From Candidatus Aenigmatarchaeota archaeon (GTDB lineage: Archaea; Aenigmatarchaeota; Aenigmatarchaeia; CG10238-14; SCSR01), in assembly GCA_016213525.1 (NCBI GenBank), contig JACRAE010000005.1:17405-81404 (forward strand): a stretch of 64,000 bases of DNA, in the 5' to 3' direction. Under the pieces are notes generated by a model that saw only the letters and a list, made by a program, of their open reading frames with translations, did not search any database and was not told where the DNA came from. Numbering within the stretch: position 1 is the first letter of the stretch; each line of letters opens with the position of its first letter. This document shows, one piece after another, positions 924 to 56,631 of the stretch. A program made the translations under genes and the position numbers.

Positions 924-3900
924 TCAGCCTATGTAGCCGGACACGCCCATCGTGTCGTCTTCCTTCTGGCGCACGCGCTTCTGCCTCTCGACGAACTTCT
1001 CGTAGTGCGCGCGCACCTCCTTCGAGATGCTCGGCGTCAGCTTCTTCAACGCGTCTTCGAAGTGCTTTGACTTGACTTCGTCCGCCTTGACGTCCTCCCT
1101 CAGGGCGTTCATCGCGGCCTCCCTGCAGAGCGAGTCCAAGTCTGCACCCGAGAATCCGTCGGTAGACTTTGCTATTTCCTTCAGGTCTATCCCTTTCAGC
1201 GGCATATGATTTACATGAACTTTCAATATTTCTAATCTTGCCTTTTCGTCTGGGGGAGGTACCATTACGTATCTATCGAACCTACCTGGTCTCAATATTG
1301 CAGGATCTATAATGTCTGGTCTATTCGTAGCCGCAATAACTACGACTCCCTTTAATTCTTCAAGACCAGACATCTCGGTTAGGAGTTGGGATACTATACT
1401 TTCACTCGAATGTTCCCCTCCAGATATATTTCTTTTTGGAGCTAACGAATCTATTTCATCAAAGAATATTACTGTGGGAGCTACCTGCCTCGCTCTTCGG
1501 AAGAGGTCGCGTATCATTTTTTCCGATTCACCCACCCACTTACTTTTTAGTTCCGGCCCCTTAACAGATATGAAGTTCGCACCGCTCTCATTTGCAACGG
1601 CCTTCGCGAGTAGGGTCTTACCTGTACCTGGAGGACCATAGAGCAAAATTCCTTTTGGAGGTTGTATACCCATTCTTTCGAATCCCTCTGGATTTTTCAA
1701 TGGCCATTCGACCATTTCTATTAGTAATTGTTTCACTTCCTCAAGTCCACCTATGTCTTTCCATTTTACTTTAGGAATTTCAACTAGGACTTCACGCATA
1801 GCAGAAGGTTCTACTACTCTAATAGCATTATCGAAGTCGTCTTTTGTTACACCCTTCTCAAGTTTTTTAATTATGTCTTCAGACAAATCTTCTTCCTTCC
1901 AATTTATTTCTGGAAGAACTCTTCTTAGAACACTCATAGCCGCTTCTTTTGTAAGTGCCCATAAGTCAGCACCCACATAGCCATATGTTTTTTCAGCCAT
2001 GTCTTTAATAATTTTTTCTTTAAGTTTCTTTTCTATTGGTGTCCAGTTTTCTCCCAATAGAATTTTTATACCAGATTCCAGCTTTATCCAAAAATCTCTT
2101 GAGTTATTTGATATACCTAGATAACTTTGGATTATTTCTTTCTGTTCATCATCTAATTTAGGTAAAATTCTGTTTTTAATATTTTCTATAGAACTTAAGT
2201 CCTCAAACTTCTTCAATATAATTTCCTTTTTTTGTCTATACTCAATATTTTTGACATGAGGCCCTGTTAGAATCTCTTCAATATCCTTTATACTATAAGC
2301 ATTTAGTATGTTAAATTTTTCCTCTTTAGACAAACTGTATTCTTTTTGTATATCCTCTAAGAGCAAATTCTTGAATATTGAAAATATTTCCTGATAGAAT
2401 GTTACATGATTCTGGAGTACTCCATTATTGATTAAATATATATTTTTAGAAAATATTTCAGTTTCTTCTTTTTCACGACCAAGTTGTTTTATCAAATTAT
2501 TTTTTTGAGATATTTCATCTTTTTGGGCATTAATTTCGTTATCTATCCTTTGTATCTGATTTGGTAAAATTGTTTTTATTTTTCTATCTACATTGGATAT
2601 GTCAGAATCTATTTGTTCAATTTCGCTCTGAAGTTCCTTGTATTTAGCGGCTCCCTTTTCAGATTTGAAAGCTATATGAGACGTAGAATGTCCTATAATC
2701 TGATCCGATAAATTTTCTATATCGTCTCTGAATTTTTTTTCTTTGTTTTTTAACGTTTTTAATTCTTTTTCATATGAATCTATTTCAGATAATATTTTAT
2801 CCTTGTTTTTTTCTAGGTGTTTTATATCATCCTCGTGTTCCTTAATTTCATCTTCTGCTCGTTTTGTATTATTTTGTATGTTCTTTATTTTGGATTTGAA
2901 ATCATCTTCGATATTTTCTTTTTTGAATTTTTCAGCTAATTCATTGAGTCCATTTTGAACTATTAGTAAATCTATTGGGGGATCAAGTGGCATATTTGCA
3001 GTGTGTATTTTCAATATCTCTAATCTACCCTTGTAATCCGGCACTGGTATTTCAATTTCTCTATCAAAACGTCCTGGTCTTCTTAGAGCAGGATCTATTG
3101 CATTTTGTCTGTTTGTAGCAGCTATTACTATGACCTTGCCTCTTTTCTTAAGACCATCCATGAGTGTGAGTAATTGAGAAACTACTCTTCTTTCAACTTC
3201 TCCTGTAGCATCTTCTCTTTTCGGAGCGACGGAATCAATTTCATCAATAAATATTATTGATGGGGCATTTTTTTCGGCATCTTCAAATATTTTACGTAAA
3301 TTTTCTTCGGACTGACCATACCATTTGCTCATTATTTCTGGTCCAGAAATTGATACGAAGTTCGCACCGCTCTCACTCGCAACGGCCTTCGCGAGTAGGG
3401 TCTTACCTGTACCTGGAGGACCATAGAGCAAAACACCCTTCGGTGGTTCCACTCCAAGTTTATCAAAAAGTTCTGGGTGTCTGAGTGGTATTTCAATCAT
3501 TTCACGTACTTTTCCTATTACTGGACCCAATCCTCCAATATCTTCATAACTTACGATTGGCATAGTTCTCTCTTCTATTTTCATAGCTTCTGGAAGTTCT
3601 GCCAAAATGTCCAAATCGGTGACGTCAGTTATCTTAACTATAGAATTACTTGGATCTGTATTTGTCACAATGAATCTAACTTCTCCTGCTAACGGTGTAA
3701 ATATCATATCTTCGAATGGATTGGAGCCGAAAAATTCTTCGAATATGTTTCCCCCTCTGGCACGCTTCCTGACGACAGGCGACGGAATCAATATGTCTCC
3801 CTTCGCGACCGGGCGCATGTAGATGTTCTGCTTGATCAGGTTCGGCGATATGTGGATTATCATTCCCTTCTCTGCAGGGGCTATCGTGACGCGCTTGGCC

Positions 3901-4193
3901 TCCTTAACTTCTGCTTTCTTGACTTTTACTAACTCCCCAACGCCGCTCCCAGAGTTCCTCCTGGTTATCCCGTCCATGCGAATAATATTCAAACCAACGT
4001 CTGCGGGGTACGCGCGCATCGCTATCGCCGCGGTCTTCCTGTTCCCCTCTATCTCGACCACGTCGCCCTCTTTTATGCTGAGCTTGTTCATGTTGTTCGA
4101 GTCTATCCTGACGATTCCCCTGCCAGCTTCCTCCCTCGCGGTCAGCTCGCCGACCTTCAATTTCGTGTCTGAGCCGGGCGTTTTCTCTGCCAT
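924..4193 (-). CDS. cdc48: Cdc48/VCP/VAT-type double-ring AAA+ ATPase with a ~330-aa insertion in the D1 lid
   Basis: 1089-aa ORF. N-domain GRGIVRID...GDVVEIEG. Two Walker A GPPGTGKT, Walker B IIFIDEID and VIFFDEID, and two ATNR..IDPA(L/I)LRPGRFD second-region-of-homology segments. Confidence 0.92.
1567..1648. repeat. 82-nt GC-rich patch (D2 Walker A region), ~96% identical to 3352-3433
   Basis: Hand alignment gata[t/c]gaagttcgcaccgctctca[t/c]t[t/c]gcaacggccttcgcgagtagggtcttacctgtacctggaggaccatagagcaaaa, 3 mismatches. Confidence 0.9.
3352..3433. repeat. 82-nt GC-rich patch (D1 Walker A region), partner of 1567-1648
   Basis: Same alignment as above. Flanking sequence of the two AAA domains is clearly diverged at nucleotide level. 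Confidence 0.9.
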
Positions 4194-4194
4194 A

Positions 4195-4569
4195 TTAGAA
4201 ATCTTCCTCTTCCTGCATTATCTTCTTTTTCATCGGCCTCATTTCCTTGAAAAGCTCGTCTCCGTCGTCTAGGAGGACCTTGAACGTCCTCATCATGACC
4301 TTCTTGCTCCAGTCGTCGAAGAAGTCCATCATCTTGTCGGCGTCCCCCTCCGGCACTAGGAAAGAAGACTGGTCGACCTTCTCGTGCGGCATCTCCTCGA
4401 TCACGCCCTCGCGGTGGTACACGTACTTCTTCTTCCCTCCAGGAACTGTCTGGGTCCAGCCGTAGAGCTCCTTGTAGAACTTCGTCTTCTCGGAGTTGCT
4501 GACCCCGGAGGACTTCATAGTGAACGTGAACATCACGGCCTTCTTTTCCTTCCTTTCGTCCTCGGACAT
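4195..4569 (-). CDS. Hypothetical protein (124 aa), translationally coupled to cdc48
   Basis: The TAA stop lies 1 nt from the cdc48 ATG. TATA-like tttatata sits ~25 nt upstream of the ATG. Alternating beta/alpha-like pattern (AVMFTFTMK / KTKFYKELYGW / YVYHREGV) and an acidic tail. Confidence 0.6.
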   Translation of the reverse strand: MSEDERKEKKAVMFTFTMKSSGVSNSEKTKFYKELYGWTQTVPGGKKKYVYHREGVIEEMPHEKVDQSSFLVPEGDADKMMDFFDDWSKKVMMRTFKVLLDDGDELFKEMRPMKKKIMQEEEDF

Positions 4570-5819: not shown

Positions 5820-5859
5820 TCGGGCAAACGTTCATTAGCCAACCGTGGAAAATAGTTCA

Positions 5860-8800
5860 ATGGGGAGTCGGATGGGCACGAAACAAGTTGCGGCAATTTT
5901 GCTGGCGGTCTCAGTGCTCGGTCTGGCGGTAGCCATGGCGCCGGCCTTGGGGGAGGATTCGTTCCATTCAGTTGAGTTCGAATCGAAAGTACACGACGAT
6001 GTGAAAGAGGAGGTAGCCGCCGATCCGAACGACACCATAGAGGTCATCGTCGAGACCTCGGGCGGCGACGAATCTGCCCAGAGGGAGGCAATCGAGCTTA
6101 TTGGTAACATAACCCACGACTACTCCACAATAGATTCTTTTTCGGTGGAAATCAGACCGGAAGATCTGGACGAACTGTCCCAGGAAGATTTCGTCACGAG
6201 CATAGAGCCAGACCCAATATTCATTGCTCAGCTGCAGACCAGCGTGCCCCTGGTAAACGCCTCAGTCACATGGTCGCGCACGGTTTCCGGGGTCAATCTT
6301 ACCGGTAGAGGGATAGGAGTCTGTATAATCGACACCGGGGTCAACTACACGCACCCTGACCTTGGCGGATGCCCGGCGACGTCCGACATAAACACGGCCG
6401 GGTGCTCCAGGGTAGTTGCAGGATACGATTTCGTCAACGACGACAACAACCCCATGGACGACGTCGACCATGGCACGCATGTAGCAGGCATAGTTGGTGC
6501 TAACGGCGGAATAGTTGGGGTAGCTCCAAACTCCAGCATAATAGCGATAAAATCGCTCGCTCCGGGCAACCCGCCTTCCGGGACCCTGTCGGACATTGTG
6601 GCGGGCATAGACTGGTGCGTGAGCAACGCTACCTCGCTGAACATAAGCGTAATCAGCATGAGCCTGGGAGACGGCGGTACATATGCCGGATACTGCGACG
6701 GCACATACCCTTCAATGACGGCTGCGATAAACTCAGCCATTTCCAGCAACATAACGGTCGTGGTAGCCTCTGGGAACGACGGCAGCACGTCTGGAATGTC
6801 CAACCCGGCATGCGTGACGAACGCAACGTCGATAGGATCTACCACGGACTCCGACGTGTTCAGCAGCTTTAGCAACAGGAACTCCATTCTGGATCTGGCC
6901 GCCCCGGGGTCCACCATAAACTCGACCAGGATACAGGGAGGCTACGTGGAGTTCAGCGGCACCTCCATGGCGACGCCGCATGCGGCCGGGATGTTCGCCA
7001 TCTTGTACCAGAAGTACAAGCTCCTGTACAACGCGAAGCCTGCCGTGGGCCTTCTGGAGAGCATCAGCAAGTCTAGTGGCGTCATGATATACGATTCCGG
7101 AGTCGGGATGAGCTTCCCGAGAATAGATGTTCTCAACACGTCTCAGCAGATACGCTCCACCTACTCGTCGCACGTCTCGGGAAACTCAACGATCGAGAGG
7201 GGATCTCAGGTGAATTTTTCCGCCATGTGGTCCAGCAACGTAAACCTTGGATTTGCCGTGCTGTCGACCAACGAGACGGGCGCGTTCCTGAACAAGACTG
7301 AGAACTATGGATCCCCGCAGACGCTCTTCGCCATGAACTGGAGCAACTTCACATGGTCGAACTCGTCCGTTCCCAATGGAACCGTAGTACTGTGGAGGAT
7401 ATACGCCAACGACAGCGCCGGGAACCAGAATGCCACCGACGCGCTGAACTTCACCGTACTGGACACCACGATATACATGACGAACTCCACCAAGACGAAC
7501 GACACGTCTTACTCGTCCGGCGCGTTCTATTCGTTCAACGTGACGGTGACCGAGTTCACGGGCACGGGGAACGTGACGTTCGAGTGGGACTCGTCCCAGA
7601 ATTCCACGGTGTATCTTTACCAGACCCTGAACTCGAGCTCCAGCGTCTTCATGGCCAACAAGACCGACCTCCCGGCCGGTAACTACACTTACAGGTGGAT
7701 TGCGAACGACACGCTCGGAAACAGGAACTCCGCATCTGGCACCTTCAACCTGTCTAAGGCACAGCCGGCGATGATCCTGTCGTCGACACCCTCGAACTCC
7801 ACGGTGTTCGGCGGGTTCACAGCAGCAAATGGTACCATCGTCACTGGGGATGTCTCCTTCATTCTGAGCCTGACCAGAAATGGGACGGTCGTCAACACGA
7901 GCTCCAGCAGGTCCGTCACCGAAAACGTAACTCTAGGGTCTGGCACCCACAACTACACCCTGACGTACAACGGGACCCAAAACTACACCTCATTTTCAAT
8001 ATCGAACTTGACTTCCGTCAGCACGGCCCCGACTTCAATAGGCCTCTTCCTCAACGGTACCCAGGGAAACTTCACCTATGACAGGTCTTCCCAGGTGAAC
8101 ATCACCGCCAGGGTCAACGTGACGGGCGCCGGATTGAACGTCTCCATATTCCTGAACAGCAGCGGGACGTCCATTGAAGTCAACTCGTCTTCAAACACCG
8201 CCTCATATTTCATCGGAACCTCGGGACTGAACCTGGGGATCTACAATGTCACCGCGTCATACAACGGAAGCAGCTCGAACTATTCTCGGAGCAGTCAGAC
8301 TTTCTTCTTCTCCGTGAGGGAGTTCTATAGGAACTTCTCCGTGAGCATACAGAACGGGACCTTGGAGTTGGTGGACGCCGATGAGGCGAACACGACCCTA
8401 GACTTCCTGACCAACGACACGGTAATCAACAACGAGACAAACGTGTCGGTTGGCAGCGACAACCCCGTGGGCGCCAACCCGTCCGGAATCTCGATAGGCA
8501 AGTTCCTCAGGATAAACGTGAGCTCCCGCATAGCGAGCAACCTCACCTATGCCGTGATAAGGTTCAGTTACCTGGACTCCGACGTCCCATCGGGCGCGGA
8601 CGAGAGCACGCTGAGGCTGTTCAGGTGGAACGGCTCGTCCTGGGTCAGGTTCGACGGCCAGTTCATCGGGGGCGTGGACACGTCGAGCAACGTTGTGTTC
8701 GCCAACACAACGCAGTTCAGCGACTTCACGGTGGCAGGCGAGGCCGCGTCGTCGCCGGCGCCCGTCTCGGTCTCATCCTCGGGAGGCGGAGGAGGAGCCC

Positions 8801-9129
8801 CGTTGAAGAAATCGAACGTCTCAGTTGAGAAAGAAAACAATACGACCGAGATCCCCGTTGTTTCCGAAGAAAATGTTCCCGATGTGGTTTTGGTGGAGAA
8901 CACGACGGCAGCCGAAGAAAGTCCCGACTCGTCCGGGGACGCCGCGGAGCCCCAGACGGCGTATCTGTCATATGCCACCACAGCTCTGGCAGTTATTGGC
9001 GTGGCGGCCGTCTTGTTTTCAATCAGGCGCAAAATATCCCGCCTGTTGGAATTCCACAGGAGGCCCTGGCGCCAGCGGGGATCCGGCCTGCACTTCCACA
9101 AGAACTCTAGGCGGAGGAGGCCTTCTTAG
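5860..9129 (+). CDS. Secreted subtilisin-like (S8) serine protease with a long N-x-S/T-rich stalk and a C-terminal TM anchor
   Basis: Signal-like MGSRMGTKQVAAILLAVSVLGLAVAMA. Catalytic triad contexts CIIDTGV, HGTHVAG, GTSMATPH. C-terminal YATTALAVIGVAAVLFSIRRK. The ORF-track start (GTG 5845) is replaced by the ATG at 5860. Confidence 0.88.
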   Translation: MGSRMGTKQVAAILLAVSVLGLAVAMAPALGEDSFHSVEFESKVHDDVKEEVAADPNDTIEVIVETSGGDESAQREAIELIGNITHDYSTIDSFSVEIRPEDLDELSQEDFVTSIEPDPIFIAQLQTSVPLVNASVTWSRTVSGVNLTGRGIGVCIIDTGVNYTHPDLGGCPATSDINTAGCSRVVAGYDFVNDDNNPMDDVDHGTHVAGIVGANGGIVGVAPNSSIIAIKSLAPGNPPSGTLSDIVAGIDWCVSNATSLNISVISMSLGDGGTYAGYCDGTYPSMTAAINSAISSNITVVVASGNDGSTSGMSNPACVTNATSIGSTTDSDVFSSFSNRNSILDLAAPGSTINSTRIQGGYVEFSGTSMATPHAAGMFAILYQKYKLLYNAKPAVGLLESISKSSGVMIYDSGVGMSFPRIDVLNTSQQIRSTYSSHVSGNSTIERGSQVNFSAMWSSNVNLGFAVLSTNETGAFLNKTENYGSPQTLFAMNWSNFTWSNSSVPNGTVVLWRIYANDSAGNQNATDALNFTVLDTTIYMTNSTKTNDTSYSSGAFYSFNVTVTEFTGTGNVTFEWDSSQNSTVYLYQTLNSSSSVFMANKTDLPAGNYTYRWIANDTLGNRNSASGTFNLSKAQPAMILSSTPSNSTVFGGFTAANGTIVTGDVSFILSLTRNGTVVNTSSSRSVTENVTLGSGTHNYTLTYNGTQNYTSFSISNLTSVSTAPTSIGLFLNGTQGNFTYDRSSQVNITARVNVTGAGLNVSIFLNSSGTSIEVNSSSNTASYFIGTSGLNLGIYNVTASYNGSSSNYSRSSQTFFFSVREFYRNFSVSIQNGTLELVDADEANTTLDFLTNDTVINNETNVSVGSDNPVGANPSGISIGKFLRINVSSRIASNLTYAVIRFSYLDSDVPSGADESTLRLFRWNGSSWVRFDGQFIGGVDTSSNVVFANTTQFSDFTVAGEAASSPAPVSVSSSGGGGGAPLKKSNVSVEKENNTTEIPVVSEENVPDVVLVENTTAAEESPDSSGDAAEPQTAYLSYATTALAVIGVAAVLFSIRRKISRLLEFHRRPWRQRGSGLHFHKNSRRRRPS

Positions 9130-40870: not shown

Positions 40871-41194
40871 TTTGTCAAGGTCTGGTAATCTCGAGCTATT
40901 GGAAATCGCGGGCTGAAATTCTCGCGCGAACGCTTGAACCTTACACCCCAATCCCATCAATCTCGTAGTCTACGAGTGCCCTCGTCCCGACTCTAGCCTT
41001 GCGGCCAGACTCGAGAGTGGCAATCTATTATTTCCGGACGGTTTCGAGCTTAGATGCTTTCAGCTCTTATCCGTGTATGGCTTGGCTGCTCGGCAGTGCC
41101 GATTGACAACCGATACACTAGAGGCCACGGAGGCATGTTCCTTTCGTACTTATGCCTCCTTCCGGTCAGATTGCTTACACCTCTAGTAGATAGC

Positions 41195-41228
<34 letters not shown>

Positions 41229-41341
41229 AGCGTCCCCCTTTAACCAGTGGACACCTGTACCCTTGGCTGCTGCTGCACAGCCAGGAGGGGGGGAGCCGAC
41301 AGCGACGCACCAACGCGCCGGGTCAATATGCCCGTCTTACG

Positions 41342-41455
41342 ACGGTTTATCGAATCCCAATTCGCTGATCGTTTAGTTTAGAGCTTGTAGGCTCTTTTTG
41401 CTATCAGATTCAGAAATATGTGGGAGTGAAAACCACTACTGTGGGCTTTCACCGG
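41342..41455 (-). other. 114-nt insertion in the 23S helix-89-equivalent loop (candidate intron or expansion)
   Basis: Conserved flanks ...GTGGCCGGTGAAAG | insert | GCATATTGACCCGGCGCGTTGG... compared with E. coli CCCAAGAG|UUCAUAUCGAC (~2472/2473). Confidence 0.6.
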
Positions 41456-41618
41456 CCACGGGCCCATTATCCCCGAGGTAGCTTTTCTTAGACCACCGGG
41501 CCCCATTAAGAAGCCTCGATGTATCGCTAACCCATGCTTTCGCAGCTGGATTCCGTACTTTTTAGAATCCAGTCAGCCCAGCTTTTGCGTTTGCACTCTA
41601 CTCCGGATTTCTGTCGGG

Positions 41619-41827
41619 TGATGCAAATCGTTATTAAACATCGCAAAGCGTCCACGAAAATTCTCTTGTACACTCATCAGCTACCTCTGTCTTCATCCTT
41701 TCGAAAGTCAGACTGGAGCGATCTAGTCACTGTGTCATTTCAGTTTCTTTTACGTGGGCAATGCCTCTAAAGCTGTTAGGTTTTTTAGTCCTCATGCTCT
41801 TCGAGGCAAAATGCGACTTGCATCATG
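41619..41827 (-). other. ~209-nt insertion in a domain V hairpin loop of 23S (candidate intron)
   Basis: Flanks ATCCGGGG | insert | CCCGACAGAAATCCGGAG compared with E. coli AUCCUGGUCGGACAUCAGGAG (~2300-2316). The insert termini TGATGCAA / TTGCATCA are perfectly complementary. Confidence 0.65.
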
Positions 41828-42027
41828 CCCCGGATGAGCTGAGCTTTGGGAGCCCTTGATACCTTTTCAAGGGCGTGCCGCCCCAGCCGAACTGCCCATC
41901 TGACGGTGTCCCCTTTTGGGGTGAGCAGTAAAGTTCCCGAATGATGGTGTTACACTTTCCCCTATCCCAAGACCTAAATCTTGGGCATAACGGGTCCCAC
42001 CTACTCTATGAAGCGGAAACTTTACCA

Positions 42028-42064
<37 letters not shown>

Positions 42065-42210
42065 TATCCCACTAGAGGTCTCTGGCTTATTCACCAGAAT
42101 GGCAATTTCACTGGGTACCCGCCCAGGACAGCGGGAAGATTGTTGAGCCATTCAGACGGGCCGTCATTTAAACGGCAAGGGATTACGCTACTTTACGACG
42201 GTCAGAGTTT

Positions 42211-42403
42211 GCGGGGTCCGAAATGAGGGAAACTTTCCATAACGACTTTGAATCGCTTGAAAAATCTCTCGATTTCTTTCTCCAACTCGTAATCCACCCT
42301 ACTGAATGATGCTCCTTGGCTAACCTGTTTAACGCCTCCCAGAAGTAGTTCGTTGGAACTGTGAAAGCAATACTTGCGTACTCGCCTCCCTCACTTCCTG
42401 ACC
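42211..42403 (-). other. ~193-nt insertion in the 23S helix-69-equivalent loop (candidate intron)
   Basis: Flanks GGCGGCGGTAA | insert | CTCTGACCGTCG compared with E. coli GGCGGCCGUAACUAUAACGGUCC. The insert ends pair as GAAGTGAGGGA / TCCCTCATTTC and GGTC / GACC. Confidence 0.7.
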
Positions 42404-44389
42404 TTACCGCCGCCGTTTACCGGGGCTTCGATCGGTTGGAACCGACTTTGACCTACCGGCACTGGGCAGGCTTAAGAGATTGTACTTGTGCTTGCGCATT
42501 GGCAATCTCCATCGTTTTTGTTAAACAGTCACCTTCCCCTTGTCACTGCGACCTGCTTCCCCTTGCGAGGAAACAGGCACTCCTTATACCAAGGATACGG
42601 AGCTAACTTGCTGATTTCCCTAGGCAGGGTTTTCCCAACACACCATGGTCTTTTCAACCAGTCTACCTGTTACGGTTCTCGGTACGGACATATAGGATCC
42701 TTGATTGCCCACTTTTCACGGGCACCTGGAATTCGCAGAACTCCGCATACGCGGGGCTGTTCGTGCATTCCTCCCCTTCTCCTCGTTACAAGACTCCAGG
42801 GACTTCAACACTTAACTTACGTCCACGTGTCCAGATGCGTCGCGAGCAACCCTTGCGTTGCCGCACGTACCCATATGGTATCGGAATATTAACCGATTTC
42901 CCTATCACTAAATCCGGTTAAGGTTTAGTTTAGGACCGACTTACCGCCAGCTGACGAACATTGCTGGCAAACCCTTAGACTTAAGGCGGTGGAGATTCTC
43001 ACTCCACTACGTTGCTACTCATGGCAAGATCTGCATTACCGAACGGTCCACCACTGCTTACGCAGAGGCTTCTGCCCGTACGGTACGCCTCCCTACTACC
43101 CCTTATCAGGGTCTATGGTATCGGTAGTTGACTTAGTCCCTTCCATCTTCAGAACGCACATCCTCGGCAGGTAAGCTATTACGCACTTTTTAACTGATGG
43201 CTGCTTCTGAGCCTACAGTCCTGCTGTCTGAGGATGCACATTTCCTTCTACGTTTAGCCAACATTTTGGGACCTTAACCATAGTTGGGGTTATTTCCCTT
43301 TCGCCAACCGAGTTTAACCCGGTAAGCTCATTCCAGACTTCTACGGCGGTACCAGGTTCGGAGTTTGGCAGCAAAGCTGAACCTTTCGGTCCTTGACTTC
43401 ACAATCAGTAACTCTACCCTGATACCGGCCTCGGTCTAGACTGCACTGACATGCATTTCGGGAGGAACCAGCTATCTCGTGTCTCGTTAGGCTTTTCACC
43501 CCTAATCCCAAATCACACGAGTGATTGGCAGTTCAACAACGCTTCGGCCCTCCACCATACTTTCGTACGGCTTCAGCCTGTTCAGGATTAGATCGACACG
43601 CTTCAGGTCGTAAACCAGCGACTTCACGCCCTTTCAGACGCCGCGCCACATTCAACATTACGCGCTTGTCGCTTTCGCTACGGCTACCTCGCTTAAACGA
43701 GTTAACCTCGCCGCTGATATACACTCCTTGCCCCGTTTTTCAAAACGGACGCTAAAACACTGTAAGCGACACCTCGTACTGCAGCCTCTCGACTGTTTCC
43801 TTCGGGTCGCACCTTCCGTGCCTTAGCTGACTTATACCGACTTGGTTTCAGGTTCTTTTAACCCGGCTCACGCCGTTCTTTTCAGCTTTCCGTCACCGTA
43901 CTATTGCACTATCGGACTTCGTTAGTATTTAGGGTTGGCACTTAATTCTGCCAGATTCACGCTCCGTATCTAGGGAACGTTACTCAGGATACTAGGCATT
44001 ATCCTTTCTCACTTCCTCTACGCGGCTATCACGCTTTAACGCGCGCCTTTCCAGGCGTCTTCGAGTCGCGAGACTGGGATAGACCCTAGTCCTTCAACTC
44101 CACATCCATATCGCATTACTGCGACTGTTCGGTTTGCCCTGCGCCACTTTCACTCGCCGTTACTAATGGCATGCAAATTTGTCTCTTTTCCTGCGGGTAG
44201 TAAGATGCTTCACTTCCCCGCGTTCCCGTACCTCTCGGTACCTACCGAAGTAGAAGATCCTCATTCGGACACCTCGGGGTCGTAGGCTGCATGCGCCTAA
44301 CCCGAGACTATCGCGGCTTGCCGCGTCCTTCTTCGGCTAACGAAGCCAAGCCATCCACCAAGCGGCTGTTATTACCAGACCTCTTTGAC

Positions 44390-47508: not shown

Positions 47509-47784
47509 ATGGCTCAAACGCACATAGTGAAAAGGAAGGGTCGCAAGGAGAGGTTCGACGAGAGGAAGATCTATCTGTCGTGCTTCGCGTCCTGCAGGGT
47601 CGTCGGCATACCCGACAAGCAGAACGAGAAGATATGTGGTTCAGTGGTGAAGAGCGTCAGGGCCTGGGTCAAGAACAAGCGCGAGGTCAGGTCTAAGGAC
47701 ATAATGAAGTTCGTCGTATCATCTCTCAGGAAACACGACAAGGACGCCGCGTTCATGTACGAGACCCACAAGGACATAGGCTAG
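47509..47784 (+). CDS. Stand-alone ATP-cone domain protein (91 aa)
   Basis: HIVKRKGRKERFDERKIYLSCFASC... has the typical ATP-cone start. Confidence 0.65.
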   Translation: MAQTHIVKRKGRKERFDERKIYLSCFASCRVVGIPDKQNEKICGSVVKSVRAWVKNKREVRSKDIMKFVVSSLRKHDKDAAFMYETHKDIG

Positions 47785-50396
47785 GGCTTCTTCCTGAAAA
47801 TCTCGCGGTCGAACACTTCCGGCACTATTAGGAACGCGACGCTCGAGAGGCCGAACACCATCACCCAATCTTCGATTGTCAGAGGCACCGTCTCGAAAAC
47901 CTCCTCCAGTACACTGGTCTGCACCACGGCCACCTGAAGTATTATCGAGGAAGCAGCCGCCAGAAGGAGCCACTTGTTGTTTATCGGGTTCATTCTGAAC
48001 ACCCCCCTGGTCTCAGAGCGGCAGTTGAAAACTAGGAAGATCTCGAATATCACCATCGTGGAGAAGGCCATCGTCCTGGACTTCTCAATCCCCTGGGGCA
48101 GGGCAATCATGAACGCCGCCATCGTCACAGCGAATATTGTGATTCCTGACGCGATGACGAACAGCCAGTCGTTGTCGAGTATCTTCTCCTTCGGGCTCCT
48201 GGGTCTGCGCTTCATCACGTCCTTCTCCTTCGGGTCCATTCCCAGAGCCAGTGCGGGCAAACCGTCGGTCACGAGGTTCATCCAGAGGAGCTGAACCGGC
48301 AGCAGGGTGGGCAGCAGCGCCGGCCCGAAGCCTATGACCATGGGTATGGTGATGAATAGGACCTCTCCTGTGTTTGCAGCCATCAGATATTTGATGAACT
48401 TCTTTATGTTGTCGTATATCCCTCTGCCCTCCTCCACCGCCGAGACTATGGAGGAGAAGTTGTCGTCCAAAAGAACCATGCTAGAAGCCTCCTTTGCAAC
48501 GTCGCTGCCTTTTATTCCCATCGCGACGCCGATCTCCGCGGACTTGAGCGCCGGCGCGTCGTTGACGCCGTCCCCGCTAACCGCGACTATGTGGCCCAGA
48601 GACTTCAGCTTCTTGACTATCCTCAGCTTGTGGTCGGGGGATATCCTCGCGAATATGTCCATCGTTTTCACCTTGGCCTCGAACTCCTTCTCGTCCATGG
48701 AGTCGATGTCCTCGCCGCTGACCGCGTCGCCCTCGAGCCCGACCTCGTTCGCGATTGCCCTTGCGGTTATCTTGTGGTCGCCGGTCAGCATTATCGTCCT
48801 TATGCCAGCCTGCTTGCAGACCGCTATCGCCTCCTTCGTCTCCTTGCTCGGGGGGTCAATCATGGCGACGAGGCCCACGAAGTGCATGTCCTTCTCCACG
48901 CTTTCCTCCTTGTAGCCCCTCCCGAGCCTCTTGTAGGACATCCCGAGCACCCTCATGCCGTTCGATGCGAACCTATGGACAGCCTCCATCGCCCTCTCCT
49001 TCTCAGCCCTCGTCATCTTGCAAGAGGCGAGGATTACCTCGGGCGCGCCCTTCGAGTACGCGAAGACCTCCGTCCCGACCCAGTTTATGGTTGTCATCCT
49101 CTTCCTGAAAGACGAGAACGGCAGCTCGCCGACCCTCTTATAATCGTCCTTCATCCTCGCTTTGTCTGCCAACACCACGAGAGCGCCCTCCGTCGGGTCG
49201 CCTATGACCTTCCACGAGCCCTCGTTCTTCATTATCGCGTTATTGCAGAGCCTGCCAACGCGGACCAGCATCGCGGCGCTCGGATACGAAGTTATGTCGA
49301 TTTTCTTGCCGTCGATGGTGAAGTCGCCCTTGGGCTCGAATCCGACGCCAGACACGTCAGCTTCCTTGCCGCCGAACCAGATTTTCCTGACGGTCATCTC
49401 GTTAGTGGTCATGGTGCCGGTCTTGTCCGAGCATATGACGTCGGCCGAGCCGAGAGCTTCGACCGAGGCGAGCCTCCTGACCACCGCGTTCCTCTTCAGC
49501 ATCCTCTGAGTTCCTATGGACAGAGTCAGCGCCGTGACCGCCGGGAGGCCCTCCGGTATCACCGCCACGGCGAGGCTGACCGCGGTGAGGAATATCAGGA
49601 ACGGCTCGAGGCCGTTCATCAGGCCCACCACAAAAATAACCGACGCTATGCCGAGCGATATCTTGCCTATCGTGAGGCCGAATACGTCCATCTTCTTCTG
49701 GAGCGGCGTAGGCTCCTCCTCCTCCTGGACGAGGGACGCTATCCTCCCGAGCTCCGTCTTCATCCCGGTGCTGACCACTATGCCCTTTCCCCTACCGGAC
49801 ACGACTAGGGTACCCATGAATCCCATGTTGGTCCTGTCACCTATCGCCATCTCACCTTCCTTCTTTTCGACGGTCTTGCTGACCGGCACGGACTCCCCGG
49901 TAAGGGCGGACTCGTCTATCCTGAGTCCCGTGACCTCCATCATCCTCATGTCGGCGGGAATCCTGTCGCCCTCCTCGACCGAGACTATGTCGCCAGGCAC
50001 GAGTTCTTCGGCAGAGACTTGGAGCGGTTTGCCGTCCCTAGTCACGATTATCTTCGAGACTATCATTTTCCTCAGGGCCTCAATCGCCCTCTCGGCCTTG
50101 TATTCCTGGTGGAAACCGAGGGCAGCGTTCAGGACGACTATTATTCCTATGGCAGCTGCGTCGGACGCCTCCCCGAGCACGAGCGAGACGATTGCGGCTA
50201 TGATAAGGACTATTACCAGGACGCTCCTGAACTGTTCGATGAACATCCTAGCAGGGGATTTTTTTGGCTTCCTCACGAGCCTGTTCGGTCCGTTCTTTTT
50301 CAGCCTGGCAGCCGCTTCCTCCTTGGACAGACCGTGCGGCGACGTCTTCAGGCTGGACATCAGAAGTCCGAAGTCAGTGTTATACCAGCTAGCCAT
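47781..50396 (-). CDS. P-type cation-transporting ATPase (type II, Ca2+/Na+-like)
   Basis: TGES (LTGESVPV), phosphorylation site ICSDKTGTMT, MLTGDHKITA, VSGDGVNDAPAL. 871 aa with ~10 TMs. Confidence 0.9.
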   Translation of the reverse strand: MASWYNTDFGLLMSSLKTSPHGLSKEEAAARLKKNGPNRLVRKPKKSPARMFIEQFRSVLVIVLIIAAIVSLVLGEASDAAAIGIIVVLNAALGFHQEYKAERAIEALRKMIVSKIIVTRDGKPLQVSAEELVPGDIVSVEEGDRIPADMRMMEVTGLRIDESALTGESVPVSKTVEKKEGEMAIGDRTNMGFMGTLVVSGRGKGIVVSTGMKTELGRIASLVQEEEEPTPLQKKMDVFGLTIGKISLGIASVIFVVGLMNGLEPFLIFLTAVSLAVAVIPEGLPAVTALTLSIGTQRMLKRNAVVRRLASVEALGSADVICSDKTGTMTTNEMTVRKIWFGGKEADVSGVGFEPKGDFTIDGKKIDITSYPSAAMLVRVGRLCNNAIMKNEGSWKVIGDPTEGALVVLADKARMKDDYKRVGELPFSSFRKRMTTINWVGTEVFAYSKGAPEVILASCKMTRAEKERAMEAVHRFASNGMRVLGMSYKRLGRGYKEESVEKDMHFVGLVAMIDPPSKETKEAIAVCKQAGIRTIMLTGDHKITARAIANEVGLEGDAVSGEDIDSMDEKEFEAKVKTMDIFARISPDHKLRIVKKLKSLGHIVAVSGDGVNDAPALKSAEIGVAMGIKGSDVAKEASSMVLLDDNFSSIVSAVEEGRGIYDNIKKFIKYLMAANTGEVLFITIPMVIGFGPALLPTLLPVQLLWMNLVTDGLPALALGMDPKEKDVMKRRPRSPKEKILDNDWLFVIASGITIFAVTMAAFMIALPQGIEKSRTMAFSTMVIFEIFLVFNCRSETRGVFRMNPINNKWLLLAAASSIILQVAVVQTSVLEEVFETVPLTIEDWVMVFGLSSVAFLIVPEVFDREIFRKKP

Positions 50397-51272: not shown

Positions 51273-51319
51273 AGTCTCAATCGAGAAGGCGCACGAAAGG
51301 CTCGCCAATATTTTCTGAG

Positions 51320-51394
51320 TGGACCGGACGGGATTTGAACCCGCAGCCTCCCGCTTGCAAAGCGGGCGTTATAACCAGGTTTAACTACCGGCCC
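51320..51394 (-). tRNA. tRNA-Ala (anticodon TGC)
   Basis: Hand-folded. Acceptor GGGCCGG/CCGGTCC with G3:U70, anticodon arm CCCGC-TTTGCAA-GCGGG, T loop TTCAAAT, discriminator A. Confidence 0.9.
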
Positions 51395-52978: not shown

Positions 52979-54526
<1,548 letters not shown>

Positions 54527-56517: not shown

Positions 56518-56631
56518 TGCTGGGGGGGAGATTTGAACTCCCGATTCCGGCGTTTCTTAGCTCTCATCCTTGCGTCGAAGCTCATACGGCGTATGAGCGC
56601 CGTGTCCTAGACCAGGCTAGACGACCCCAGC
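56518..56631 (-). tRNA. tRNA with CAT anticodon (elongator Met or Ile2) carrying a 38-nt intron at 37/38
   Basis: Acceptor GCTGGGG/CCCCAGC and anticodon stem CGGCG...CGCCG, which only closes if 38 nt (CGCCGTATGAG...CTAAGAA) are removed. Exon CTCATA pairs with intron TATGAG. T arm GGGAG-TTCAAAT-CTCCC. Confidence 0.85.

What the first reader, a model, noticed from the sequence alone, without database searches (positions are those of the whole stretch)
1989..2984. Cdc48/VAT-type AAA+ ATPase with a ~330-aa coiled-coil-like insertion in the D1 lid (ClpB/Hsp104 M-domain-like topology)
In canonical archaeal Cdc48/VAT, the D1 segment ...IHTRNMPL is followed within about 20 residues by ...YGFVGADL. 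Here HTANMPL (aa ~397-403) and YGYVGADL (aa ~737-744) are separated by about 330 residues ([39 protein letters not shown] ... [14 protein letters not shown]). This segment is K/E/I/N/L/Q-rich with a heptad-like character. The reading frame is unbroken, there are no intein signatures, and the protein reaches 1089 aa against roughly 730-750 for typical homologues. The insertion sits in the small alpha-helical subdomain of the first AAA ring. ClpB/Hsp104 carry their coiled-coil M-domain, which couples the ring to Hsp70, at the topologically equivalent position. A Cdc48 with an M-domain-like arm would be a convergent architecture and could act as a regulator or adaptor docking site. That function is inference only.
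Basis: partly seen in the sequence, partly recalled or inferred. Interest (0 to 1): 0.7.

Follow-up and report, generated by a model that had tools for sequence, protein, structure and literature searches.

The report
Cdc48 unfoldase carrying a coiled-coil arm
An archaeal Cdc48/VAT protein-unfolding ATPase really does carry a rare ~320-residue all-helical insertion (a long coiled-coil hairpin plus a helical domain with no detectable relatives) on the rim of its first ATPase ring, and in this contig it arrived inside a 2.5-kb block of foreign, AT-rich DNA.

Summary
ORF 924-4193(-) encodes a 1089-aa Cdc48/VAT. Against T. acidophilum VAT, and against its own closest relatives (758-769 aa), it has about 320 extra residues (aa 404-725) in the loop between the first two helices of the D1 lid.

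The insert is not an intein, not a lid duplication and not a match to any known domain. AlphaFold predicts three parts:
- a conserved base helix;
- a roughly 110 Å antiparallel coiled-coil hairpin;
- a seven-helix domain with no sequence or fold relatives.

A second, uniformly AT-rich gene from another sample (P0005) has a homologous insert at the same site. Both hairpin arms are shorter there and the helical domain is conserved, so the insert is a real domain under selection, though very rare.

The comparison with the ClpB M-domain is only partly supported. The insert is in the same subdomain but probably in a different loop, it is larger, and it is not homologous. The site is three residues after the equivalent of human p97 N387, at the N-D1 interface.

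New result: codons 144-997, which include the insert, have GC3 of 0.24 against 0.77 for the rest of the gene and its neighbours, and they branch elsewhere in the tree. The gene is therefore either a recombinant or an assembly chimera. Function is inferred only.

The parts
924..4193 (-). cdc48/VAT gene, 1089 codons plus stop
   Evidence: Unbroken ORF. Pfam finds CDC48_N, CDC48_2, two AAA and two AAA_lid_3. TIGR01243 scores 1000.9 bits against a cut-off of 802.65. Collinear with VAT and p97 structures except for the insert. 100% identical to NCBI MBI4894426.1, a Candidatus Aenigmarchaeota MAG.
3603..4193 (-). N domain (aa 1-197: double-psi barrel plus beta-clam)
   Evidence: Pfam CDC48_N covers aa 11-95 and CDC48_2 covers aa 119-197. 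The AlphaFold strands match. aa 140-170 form a low-confidence loop.
3045..3554 (-). D1 large AAA subdomain (aa 214-383)
   Evidence: Pfam AAA covers aa 254-383. Aligns without gaps to human p97 201-396 with an offset of 13. Walker A GPPGTGKT (aa 258-265) and Walker B IIFIDEID (aa 313-320) are read directly from the sequence.
2985..3044 (-). D1 lid helix 1 (aa 384-403, ...[15 protein letters not shown])
   Evidence: Helix 387-398 in the model. N400 is equivalent to p97 N387 and L403 to p97 L390.
2019..2984 (-). The insertion (aa 404-725, about 322 residues)
   Evidence: Absent from VAT and from the nearest relatives. Boundaries come from the profile comparison with lids that lack the insert. 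Predicted all-helical with pLDDT 64-87. Homologous insert in P0005.
2913..2984 (-). Insert base: conserved [10 protein letters not shown] motif and helix 409-425
   Evidence: P405, P406, D408, I411, Q413 and L416 are invariant between the window protein and P0005. Helix in the model. Archaeoglobaceae short inserts start with a similar [DE]P-x-[YFI]-D motif, but hhalign gives E = 0.026, which is not significant.
2694..2912 (-). Coiled-coil arm 1 (aa 428-500, one 73-residue helix)
   Evidence: Constant heptad register over aa 432-500. Single helix with pLDDT 76-87. Generic coiled-coil hits only.
2673..2693 (-). Hairpin turn (aa 501-507, within [16 protein letters not shown])
   Evidence: The heptad register shifts here. 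pLDDT is below 50 at aa 501-510.
2427..2672 (-). Coiled-coil arm 2 (aa 508-589, one 82-residue helix)
   Evidence: Heptad pattern. Single helix. In P0005 both arms are about 22-25 residues shorter (about 48 and 60 aa), as expected for an antiparallel hairpin.
2019..2426 (-). Conserved seven-helix domain of the insert (aa 590-725)
   Evidence: 45% identical to P0005, with invariant motifs FYxEIFSIFxNL, TGP, SIExIK, LPxLDxExKE and [14 protein letters not shown]. Modelled alone it gives pLDDT 74.5 and pTM 0.67 with seven helices. No relatives by sequence or by fold (best E 0.58 in PDB and 0.53 in BFVD, TM at most 0.31).
1761..2018 (-). Rest of the D1 lid and the D1-D2 linker (aa 726-811)
   Evidence: [18 protein letters not shown] aligns with the native [18 protein letters not shown]. 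Aligns to VAT 381 onward.
927..1760 (-). D2 AAA module and C-terminal tail (aa 812-1089)
   Evidence: Second Pfam AAA and AAA_lid_3 (aa 1002-1046). Walker A is aa 853-860 and Walker B aa 908-915, read from the sequence. The tail ends in YIG, and Y1087 and G1089 are invariant in 60 relatives.
1203..3764 (-). Foreign low-GC block (codons 144-997) containing the end of the N domain, D1, the insert and most of D2
   Evidence: GC3 is 0.24 inside and 0.77 outside. The two-change-point likelihood ratio is 214, with support intervals at codons 142-160 and 995-1017. Neighbouring genes have GC3 0.71-0.84. Nucleotide identity to the syntenic orthologue L002 is 84-94% outside the block and 60-77% inside it. 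Bootstrap support for (Q,P0002) is 95.5% on the gene ends and 0% on the centre.
4195..4569 (-). Conserved 124-aa gene immediately upstream; its stop abuts the cdc48 start
   Evidence: 98% identical to the L002 gene and 48% identical to the L001 gene, in the same position. No family in Pfam, NCBIfam, PHROGs or PADLOC. It is also present next to the insert-less orthologue, so it is not specific to the insert.

Best explanation
This is a functional-looking Cdc48/VAT double-ring AAA+ unfoldase with a genuine, translated accessory module of about 322 residues spliced into the surface loop between helices 1 and 2 of the D1 lid.

Shown:
- The module is all-helical in the model. It has a conserved base helix, a roughly 110 Å antiparallel coiled-coil hairpin whose length varies between lineages, and a conserved seven-helix domain that leads back into the lid.
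- It has no detectable homologues outside two Aenigmarchaeota-type Cdc48 genes.
- It enters the protein three residues after the equivalent of human p97 N387. In p97 that residue touches N-domain residue R155 when the N domain lies flat against D1.

Inferred:
- In the hexamer, six such arms sit on the outer rim of the D1 ring beside the N domains.
- Their most likely role is as a peripheral regulatory or docking arm that binds a partner (a cofactor, a substrate class or a neighbouring arm). Through its attachment to the lid and its position at the N-D1 interface, the arm would couple that binding to N-domain position and D1 nucleotide state.
- This is the same design logic as the ClpB/ClpC middle domains or the Vps4 beta-domain, but it arose independently.

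Origin in this contig: the module was not inserted on its own. It came as part of a 2.56-kb AT-rich block (codons 144-997) from an unsampled low-GC relative, replacing the centre of the resident GC-rich gene. I lean towards real recombination (about 0.55-0.6) over an assembly chimera.
For: Identity as Cdc48 and intact motors.

Insert boundaries and site.

Real, conserved domain: P0005, from a different sample (ENA ERZ27247725; 40% GC contig; GC3 about 0.24 across the whole gene), has a homologous insert at the same site. Identity is 38% overall and 45% in the C-terminal domain, with conserved hydrophobic and aromatic residues, and both hairpin arms are shorter by a similar amount.

Structure: the AlphaFold full-length model gives the insert pLDDT 64-87 with helices 409-425, 428-500, 508-589 and seven more. 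The C-terminal domain modelled alone gives pTM 0.67. Heptad registers agree with a hairpin.

No known relatives.

Position at the N-D1 interface: an offset of 13 to p97, together with the R155C/N387C disulfide that locks the N domain coplanar with D1 and lowers ATPase activity (PMC3318706).

Precedent for regulatory coiled coils inserted in the AAA-1 small subdomain: PMC4023160 and PMC5699869.

The loop is a recurrent insertion site: Archaeoglobaceae D1 lids carry 60-67 extra residues there, and the D2 lids of P0194 and P0235 have inserts at the equivalent loop.

Mosaic.

Evidence favouring recombination over a chimera:
- Both junctions fall in surface loops. One is the N-domain loop at aa 140-170 (pLDDT below 50). 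The other is the D2 lid loop between helices 1 and 2.
- Neither junction lies in the most conserved nucleotide stretches.
- No exact match of 12 nt or longer to the orthologue L002 lies near either junction.
Against: - Only two insert-bearing sequences exist, so conservation statistics and the AlphaFold alignment depth for the insert are minimal.
- Model coordinates could not be inspected, so the hairpin pairing and the direction of the arm relative to the ring are inferred from secondary structure, heptads and arm-length covariation.
- There is no expression or proteomic evidence.
- No partner is identified. The conserved upstream 124-aa gene also accompanies the insert-less orthologue.
- The function is inferred purely by analogy.
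- The mosaic could be an assembly artefact, in which case this organism does not own the insert.
- Distribution searches were limited. Motif scans used only very conserved patterns from two sequences. The two sub-query searches of the 5.8-billion-protein set failed to retrieve even the parent proteins. The 50%-identity representative library probably hides insert-bearing Cdc48 proteins behind insert-less representatives.
Confidence: 0.6

Rival explanations
1. Assembly chimera. The contig belongs to a GC-rich Aenigmarchaeote whose real cdc48 has no insert. The assembler routed the path through reads of a co-occurring AT-rich relative between codons ~144 and ~997. The insert would still be real, but it would belong to another, unsampled organism.
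For: - GC3 changes sharply from 0.77 to 0.24 and back within one gene, with no sign of amelioration.
- The syntenic orthologue L002 is GC-rich throughout and lacks the insert.
- This is the only coding low-GC patch in 64 kb.
- Cdc48 is highly conserved, the source is a metagenome-assembled genome, and homologous recombination between sequences about 70% identical is itself unlikely.
Against: - Graph assemblers need shared k-mers at both switch points. Using L002 as a proxy, there is no exact match of 12 nt or longer between nt 3814 and 3332, or around 1203-1130. The longest shared runs in the foreign block (20 and 18 nt) lie at the D2 Walker A region, not at the junctions.
- Both junctions lie in poorly conserved surface loops.
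- No near-identical donor gene and no host-native centre turned up among the 8000 scored relatives.
Confidence: 0.38
2. Assembly or tethering arm rather than a regulator. The 110 Å hairpins link hexamers to each other (as ClpC middle domains do in the resting state) or anchor the unfoldase to a cellular structure such as the membrane or a host-contact apparatus of these DPANN archaea.
For: Long solvent-exposed coiled coils commonly mediate self-association. ClpC middle domains make head-to-head contacts between assemblies (PMC5699869). The hairpin length is not conserved while the globular domain is, as expected for a spacer carrying a binding head or base.
Against: The globular domain sits at the base of the hairpin in sequence order, next to the lid, not at the tip. 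The tip is a poorly conserved loop. No transmembrane or known binding motif was found. No data exist on oligomers.
Confidence: 0.2
3. True ClpB/Hsp104/ClpC-type middle domain, either homologous or captured, that couples the ring to Hsp70.
For: Both are coiled coils inserted in the small subdomain of the first AAA module (PMC4023160).
Against: - No M-domain or Clp family hit for the insert in Pfam, NCBIfam or PDB profiles.
- The fold search of the conserved domain found nothing.
- The insert is about 2.5 times larger and has a globular domain.
- In E. coli ClpB, lid helix 1 begins at residue 340 (sequence verified). By my recollection of the published structure, not checked here, it is followed by two more lid helices before the middle domain at about residue 410, so ClpB's entry point would be a different loop. 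Sequence-level equivalence could not be established.
Confidence: 0.03
4. Non-functional or removed sequence: an intein-like or other self-splicing element, a mobile-element remnant, or a disordered low-complexity expansion tolerated in a surface loop.
For: AT-rich and K/E/I/N-rich composition. Inteins are common in Cdc48 proteins of this clade: P0047, P0057, P0077, P0089, P0090, P0102, P0104 and P0117 carry intein Pfam families.
Against: - No intein or HINT/LAGLIDADG hit.
- The insert starts with D-P-P and ends ...KLKE|K, with no Cys/Ser/Thr at the start and no His-Asn at the end.
- It is predicted all-helical, not a beta-rich HINT fold.
- There are no flanking direct repeats, no significant terminal inverted repeats, no tandem repeats and no nested ORF.
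- It is conserved at 38-45% identity with invariant hydrophobic-core motifs in a lineage whose AAA core is about 76% identical.
Confidence: 0.04

Closest known systems
Archaeal Cdc48/VAT (T. acidophilum VAT, PDB 5g4f/5vc7) and eukaryotic p97/Cdc48
   Same: Same family and domain order (N, D1, D2). It is above the TIGR01243 cut-off. D1 aligns without gaps to p97 201-396. Walker motifs, aromatic pore loops and arginine fingers are intact.
   Different: About 322 extra residues between D1 lid helices 1 and 2. VAT has about 18 residues there and the closest relatives have 13-14. I found no description of such an insert in the searched literature.
ClpB/Hsp104 middle domain (85 Å coiled-coil propeller, binds Hsp70)
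   Same: [quoted passage not shown] This is a precedent for repression and adaptor coupling through such an element (PMC5699869).
   Different: No sequence or fold similarity. The present insert is larger, is a single long hairpin rather than a two-bladed propeller, and adds a seven-helix domain. It enters after lid helix 1, whereas ClpB's enters after the third lid helix (published structures; ClpB sequence checked). The host family is a classical AAA clade member, not an Hsp100.
ClpC middle domain (single coiled-coil hairpin, binds MecA, mediates the resting state)
   Same: A single antiparallel coiled-coil hairpin protruding from the AAA-1 small subdomain, used for adaptor binding and self-association (PMC5699869).
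   Different: The ClpC hairpin is much shorter and has no attached globular domain. There is no detectable homology.
Short helical inserts at the same lid loop in other archaeal Cdc48 proteins (Archaeoglobaceae D1; P0194 and P0235 D2)
   Same: Exactly the same loop, directly after ...HTRNMP[LI]. They are helical and charged. The Archaeoglobaceae inserts start with EP-x-Y-D/x-x-F-V-L, resembling [10 protein letters not shown] here and EPPFDMMIIQ in P0005.
   Different: Only 60-67 extra residues in the Archaeoglobaceae D1 lids, and about 50-90 in the two D2 lids. They have no long hairpin and no [14 protein letters not shown] domain. Profile comparison gives E = 0.026 at 1.9% probability, so homology is not established.
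Vps4 beta-domain and the dynein stalk and buttress (my own knowledge, not tested here)
   Same: Accessory elements inserted in AAA lid subdomains that serve as docking sites (Vps4 beta-domain binds Vta1) or as long antiparallel coiled-coil levers (dynein AAA4 and AAA5 lids).
   Different: Different AAA families, different loops and different folds. These are cited only as design analogies.

Membership tests
CDC48/VAT/p97 family (TIGR01243) | Whole-protein score above the curated family cut-off | tested here: met
   1000.9 bits against a cut-off of 802.65, covering model positions 2-732 of 733.
CDC48/VAT/p97 family (TIGR01243) | N-terminal double-psi barrel plus beta-clam N domain | tested here: met
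   Pfam CDC48_N scores 92.5 bits (cut-off 35.1) and CDC48_2 scores 23.6 bits (cut-off 22.4).
CDC48/VAT/p97 family (TIGR01243) | Two tandem classical AAA modules, each with its AAA_lid_3, and intact Walker A and B motifs | tested here: met
   Two AAA stretches and two AAA_lid_3 stretches. GPPGTGKT occurs twice, and IIFIDEID and VIFFDEID are read from the sequence. The protein is collinear with VAT and p97 chains.
CDC48/VAT/p97 family (TIGR01243) | Hexameric ring assembly and ATP-driven unfolding | not testable with these tools
   Needs biochemistry or EM. Only a monomer could be modelled.
ClpB/Hsp104/ClpC middle (M) domain | Coiled coil inserted in the small subdomain of the first AAA module | tested here: met
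   The insert lies between D1 lid helices 1 and 2. It has a heptad-bearing 73-residue plus 82-residue helical hairpin. The ClpB definition comes from PMC4023160.
ClpB/Hsp104/ClpC middle (M) domain | Same entry point in the lid (after the third lid helix, about 70 residues after the start of the lid) | tested here: inconclusive
   Here the entry point is directly after lid helix 1. In E. coli ClpB the lid starts at residue 340 (sequence verified) and the middle domain starts near residue 410 according to published structures. BLASTP and hhalign could not align the two lids, so the mismatch rests on literature knowledge.
ClpB/Hsp104/ClpC middle (M) domain | Sequence or fold homology to M-domains (motif 1 and motif 2 propeller) | tested here: not met
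   No Clp or Hsp100 family or PDB chain was hit by the insert. Foldseek on the conserved domain gave a best E of 0.58.
ClpB/Hsp104/ClpC middle (M) domain | Binds Hsp70 or an adaptor and represses or activates the ring | not testable with these tools
   Requires interaction and ATPase assays.
Inteins | HINT splicing blocks, a nucleophile at insert residue 1, and His-Asn followed by Cys/Ser/Thr at the C-terminal junction | tested here: not met
   No intein Pfam hit, although inteins are detected in relatives. The junction residues are L|DPP and KE|K. The predicted fold is all-helical.
Duplicated AAA lid | Profile similarity of the insert's globular domain to D1 or D2 lids | tested here: not met
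   hhalign aligns only the native segment [14 protein letters not shown]. The weak Vps4 lid hit in the PDB (E = 0.15) is not significant.

The most novel reading that the evidence does not exclude
A lineage of DPANN (Aenigmarchaeota) Cdc48 unfoldases has independently evolved an M-domain-like control element: six roughly 110 Å coiled-coil arms, each with a new helical domain, at the N-D1 interface. These arms gate N-domain movement and ATPase activity or recruit a dedicated partner. This module-bearing motor core can move between distantly related genomes as a cassette by replacing the centre of the resident essential gene in frame.
Probability: 0.2. Interest if true: 0.72.

Novelty: new variant of a known kind. 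Interest (0 to 1): 0.52.

Why it matters
Cdc48/p97 is thought to be regulated almost entirely through its N domain and C-terminal tail by separate cofactors. A built-in peripheral arm on the D1 lid, right at the N-D1 interface that controls p97 activity and is mutated in human disease, would be a natural experiment. It would show how lid-attached elements can control a classical-clade AAA+ unfoldase, and it would be a second, independent invention of the ClpB/ClpC solution.

The seven-helix domain is a fold and sequence family with no detectable relatives. If the mosaic is real, it also documents in-frame replacement of about 80% of an essential, highly conserved gene between genomes that differ by about 50 percentage points in GC3. 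If the mosaic is an artefact, it is a useful warning about chimeric genes in deposited metagenome-assembled genomes.

Tried and rejected
1. Intein or self-splicing element: no HINT or LAGLIDADG families, the wrong junction residues and an all-helical model.

2. Mobile-element insertion: no nested ORF, no target-site-like direct repeats and no tandem repeats. There is only a 15-nt, 87% inverted repeat (2050-2064 / 2968-2982) in AT-rich sequence, probably chance.

3. Lid duplication: rejected by hhalign.

4. Known domain: Pfam, NCBIfam, PHROGs, PADLOC and PDB profiles give only sub-threshold generic coiled-coil hits such as APG6_N, LmuB, JetC and tape-measure proteins.

5. Homologues of the insert elsewhere:
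- A profile search of 1.84 billion representatives gave six weak hits, all generic coiled-coil proteins matching the hairpin part only.
- The search for related loci found none in the GTDB, JGI metagenome or viral collections.
- A degenerate DNA pattern for [14 protein letters not shown] found none in GTDB representatives or JGI metagenomes, although it does hit the window and L001.

6. Two sub-query searches of the 5.8-billion-protein set (insert alone, and insert plus flanks) failed to return even the parent proteins P0001 and P0005. Those negatives are therefore uninformative.

7. P0010 (1081 aa, Nanopusillus) looked like a second long variant, but it is an exact tandem duplication of the D1 block, not this insert.

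8. Homology to the Archaeoglobaceae short insert is suggestive at the first ~20 residues but not significant.

9. Residue-level alignment of the ClpB and Cdc48 lids failed.

10. Other low-GC patches in the window (17.4, 25.6 and 61.3-61.6 kb) are intergenic. The adjacent Lrp-like gene has a normal GC3 of 0.80, so there is no second foreign gene.

11. The look-up of encoding contigs has no record for P0001, so the source contig could not be re-fetched.
Full report
**Observation**

The window's first long gene, 924-4193 on the minus strand, is an unbroken 1089-codon ORF. Pfam finds CDC48_N, CDC48_2, two AAA modules and two AAA_lid_3 domains. NCBIfam TIGR01243 (CDC48 family) scores 1000.9 bits against a cut-off of 802.65.

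Against the solved T. acidophilum VAT (5g4f), residues 12-403 align to VAT 9-376 and residues 723-1066 to VAT 381-722. About 320 residues therefore have no counterpart. A profile comparison with lids that lack the insert shows that [10 protein letters not shown] (aa 726-735) is the native second lid helix, so the true insert is aa 404-725. The composition is K/I/E/N-rich and G/P/A/V-poor.

**What the insert is**

It is not an intein. There are no HINT or LAGLIDADG hits, although inteins are detected in several relatives. The junction residues are L|DPP and KE|K, and the model is all-helical. It is not a mobile element: there is no nested ORF, no meaningful flanking repeat and no tandem repeat. 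It is not a duplicated lid.

AlphaFold2 was run on the full protein with a 60-sequence alignment (mean pLDDT 74). For the insert it predicts, at pLDDT 64-87:
- helix 409-425;
- one 73-residue helix (428-500);
- a low-confidence turn (501-507);
- one 82-residue helix (508-589);
- seven shorter helices (592-735), the last of which runs into the native lid.

A simple heptad analysis shows a constant register over aa 432-500, a shift at the turn, and new registers over aa 509-575. This is what an antiparallel coiled-coil hairpin about 110 Å long would give. I could not inspect model coordinates, so the pairing of the two arms is inferred.

**A second, independent copy**

Searching the whole protein against 5.8 billion proteins returned an identical NCBI entry (MBI4894426.1, Candidatus Aenigmarchaeota MAG, 253.5-kb contig). 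It also returned one other full-length match, P0005 (1038 aa, 60% identity, 99% coverage), from an ENA assembly of a different sample. P0005 lies on a 40% GC contig, and its gene has GC3 of about 0.24 throughout.

Its insert is at the same site and is homologous, at 38% identity overall. The base motif ([DE]PP-x-D-x2-I-x-Q) is conserved. The hairpin is poorly conserved, and both arms are about 22-25 residues shorter (about 48 and 60 residues). That coordinated change is what an antiparallel hairpin predicts. The C-terminal domain is 45% identical, with invariant hydrophobic and aromatic motifs: FYxEIFSIFxNL, TGP, SIExIK, LPxLDxExKE and [14 protein letters not shown].

The insert is therefore a real domain under selection, not an artefact of one assembly. 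It evolves much faster than the AAA core, which is about 76% identical between the two proteins.

**No known relatives**

- A profile of the two inserts, searched against 1.84 billion representative proteins, gave six weak hits. All were generic coiled-coil proteins matching only the hairpin part.
- PDB sequence profiles, NCBIfam, PHROGs and PADLOC gave nothing significant.
- The C-terminal domain modelled alone (pLDDT 74.5, pTM 0.67) has no fold match in the PDB (best E 0.58, TM at most 0.25) or in BFVD (best E 0.53).
- A degenerate DNA pattern for the most conserved motif hits the window and P0005's contig. It hits nothing in 185,579 GTDB species representatives or in the JGI metagenome contigs.
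- The search for related loci also found nothing.

There are caveats. Two sub-query protein searches failed to return even the parent proteins. The 50% representative library probably hides insert-bearing Cdc48 proteins behind insert-less representatives. The insert is rare, but the count of two is a lower bound.

**Where it sits**

The D1 region aligns without gaps to human p97 201-396 with an offset of 13. N400 therefore corresponds to p97 N387 and L403 to p97 L390. In p97, R155C/N387C forms a disulfide that locks the N domain coplanar with D1 and lowers ATPase activity, and disease mutations, N387H among them, cluster at this N-D1 interface (PMC3318706). The insert therefore emerges on the outer rim of the D1 ring, directly beside the docking site of the N domain.

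ClpB's 85 Å middle domain is indeed inserted in the AAA-1 small subdomain (PMC4023160). However, in E. coli ClpB the lid starts at residue 340 (sequence verified). Here the insert follows lid helix 1. Sequence methods could not align the two lids, so this difference rests on published structures. The analogy holds for the subdomain and the design logic, not for the loop, the size, the fold or the ancestry.

**The loop is a recurrent insertion site**

Scanning all collected relatives for the distance between the two lid motifs turned up eight Archaeoglobaceae Cdc48 paralogues with 60-67 extra helical residues at exactly this D1 loop. Two further proteins have inserts at the equivalent D2 loop: P0194 has 104 residues between the motifs and P0235 has 66. 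The Archaeoglobaceae inserts begin EP-x-Y-D..FVL, reminiscent of [10 protein letters not shown] here. Profile comparison gives only E = 0.026 at 1.9% probability. That is suggestive of a common origin by elaboration, but it is not established.

- Codon composition: third-position GC is 0.66-0.93 in codons 1-150 and 1001-1089 and 0.14-0.48 in between. Neighbouring genes have GC3 of 0.71-0.84. A two-change-point likelihood fit places the block at codons 144-997 (support 142-160 and 995-1017), with GC3 of 0.24 against 0.77 and a likelihood ratio of 214.
- Synteny: a JGI contig (L002) has the same gene order (RsmB/F methyltransferase, an 81-aa gene, a 124-aa gene, Cdc48, a PolB-exonuclease-like gene). 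Its 124-aa protein is 98% identical, and its 765-aa Cdc48 has no insert and a uniform GC3 of about 0.8.
- Nucleotide identity: window versus L002 is 83-94% in the flanks and gene ends but 60-77% in the centre, with third-position identity of 0.2-0.4.
- Phylogeny: neighbour-joining bootstraps give (window, P0002) 95.5% on the gene ends and 0% on the centre. On the centre, (P0002, P0004) excluding the window protein gets 100%, and the window protein branches outside the whole P0002-P0011 group.

The insert shares the codon usage of the D1 and D2 sequence around it. It is therefore long resident in an AT-rich donor allele, and the whole 2.56-kb block replaced the centre of a GC-rich resident gene.

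Whether nature or the assembler did this cannot be decided without reads. I lean towards real recombination (about 0.55-0.6), for these reasons:
- Both junctions fall in surface loops: the N-domain loop at aa 140-170 (pLDDT below 50) and the D2 lid loop between helices 1 and 2.
- They do not fall in the nucleotide-conserved Walker regions where the longest shared runs lie.
- No exact match of 12 nt or longer to the orthologue lies near either junction.
- No donor or host-native version appeared among 8000 scored relatives.

None of these points is decisive. Either way the insert itself is real.

**Mechanism (inferred)**

The motor is intact: Walker A and B in both rings, aromatic pore loops KWYG and KWVG, and arginine fingers. 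The protein should therefore form the usual hexameric unfoldase.

Six lid-anchored arms on the D1 rim, next to the N domains, are best explained as a built-in regulatory or docking element. A conserved helical domain fixed to the lid would provide a binding surface, and a variable-length hairpin would reach neighbouring subunits, N domains or partners. Binding would be coupled to lid movement (nucleotide state) and to N-domain up/down position. ClpB and ClpC middle domains (PMC5699869) show that such elements can repress the ring and receive adaptors.

The alternatives are hexamer-hexamer assembly or tethering (0.2), a true M-domain (0.03), and junk or excised sequence (0.04). The conserved, translationally coupled upstream 124-aa gene is a candidate Cdc48 partner, but it also accompanies the insert-less orthologue.

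**Verdict**

This is a new variant of a known kind: a Cdc48/VAT with a large, rare lid insertion made of a coiled-coil hairpin and a novel helical domain, carried here in a foreign block. Interest is moderate (0.52). The architecture is unusual for this family and experimentally tractable. Against that, only two sequences are known, the function is unproven, and ownership by this genome is uncertain.

Noticed in passing
window 1203-3764 (-), codons 144-997 of cdc48: GC3 drops from about 0.77 to 0.24 and the phylogenetic position changes, so the centre of this essential gene is foreign. Either it is a recombinant or it is an assembly chimera in a deposited MAG.
   Followed up: yes
window 4195-4569 (-); L001 2672-3049; L002 2212-2586: A 124-125-aa gene with no family in any library lies immediately upstream of cdc48 in all three loci. 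Its stop abuts or overlaps the cdc48 start. It is 98% identical to the L002 gene and 48% identical to the L001 gene. It is a possible conserved Cdc48 partner in Aenigmarchaeota.
   Followed up: partly
P0168, P0179, P0185, P0191, P0222, P0227, P0230, P0231 (Archaeoglobaceae); P0194, P0235: Other archaeal Cdc48-family proteins carry 60-67 extra helical residues at the same D1 lid loop (starting EPEYD..FVLEAL). P0194 and P0235 have inserts at the equivalent D2 lid loop, with 104 and 66 residues between the motifs. The loop between lid helices 1 and 2 is a recurrent insertion hotspot.
   Followed up: partly
P0010 (1081 aa, Candidatus Nanopusillus sp.): This Cdc48 contains an exact tandem duplication of about 320 residues covering the D1 module and its lid, giving three AAA modules. 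It may be an assembly artefact or a very recent duplication.
   Followed up: no
window 40879-44381 (-) and 52979-54526 (-): The 23S rRNA match spans 3503 nt against a 2987-nt model, about 500 nt extra, so it may hold an intron or expansion. The 16S and 23S genes are about 8.6 kb apart, with tRNA-Ala (51319-51394) and an 871-aa ORF (47781-50396) between them.
   Followed up: no
window 56518-56631 (-): A 114-nt tRNA match found by Rfam but not by ARAGORN. It is probably an intron-containing archaeal tRNA.
   Followed up: no
window 927-935 (-), C-terminus of Cdc48: The protein ends in ...GYIG. Y1087 and G1089 are invariant in all 60 aligned relatives. This is a HbYX-like tail with the Tyr one position further from the end than in the canonical proteasome-docking motif.
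   Followed up: no
window 5845-9129 (+): A 1094-aa S8 subtilase with a signal/anchor-like N-terminus, a very long Asn-x-Ser/Thr-rich region and a C-terminal hydrophobic anchor. It is probably a heavily glycosylated surface protease.
   Followed up: no
window 2050-2064 and 2968-2982: A 15-nt, 87% complementary inverted repeat lying near the two ends of the insert-coding region. The sequence is AT-rich and the repeat is most likely chance.
   Followed up: partly
tool behaviour: Searches of the 5.8-billion-protein set with the insert alone, or with the insert plus about 90 flanking residues, did not return the parent proteins P0001 and P0005, although these contain the query exactly. Negative results from such sub-queries should not be trusted.
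   Followed up: partly
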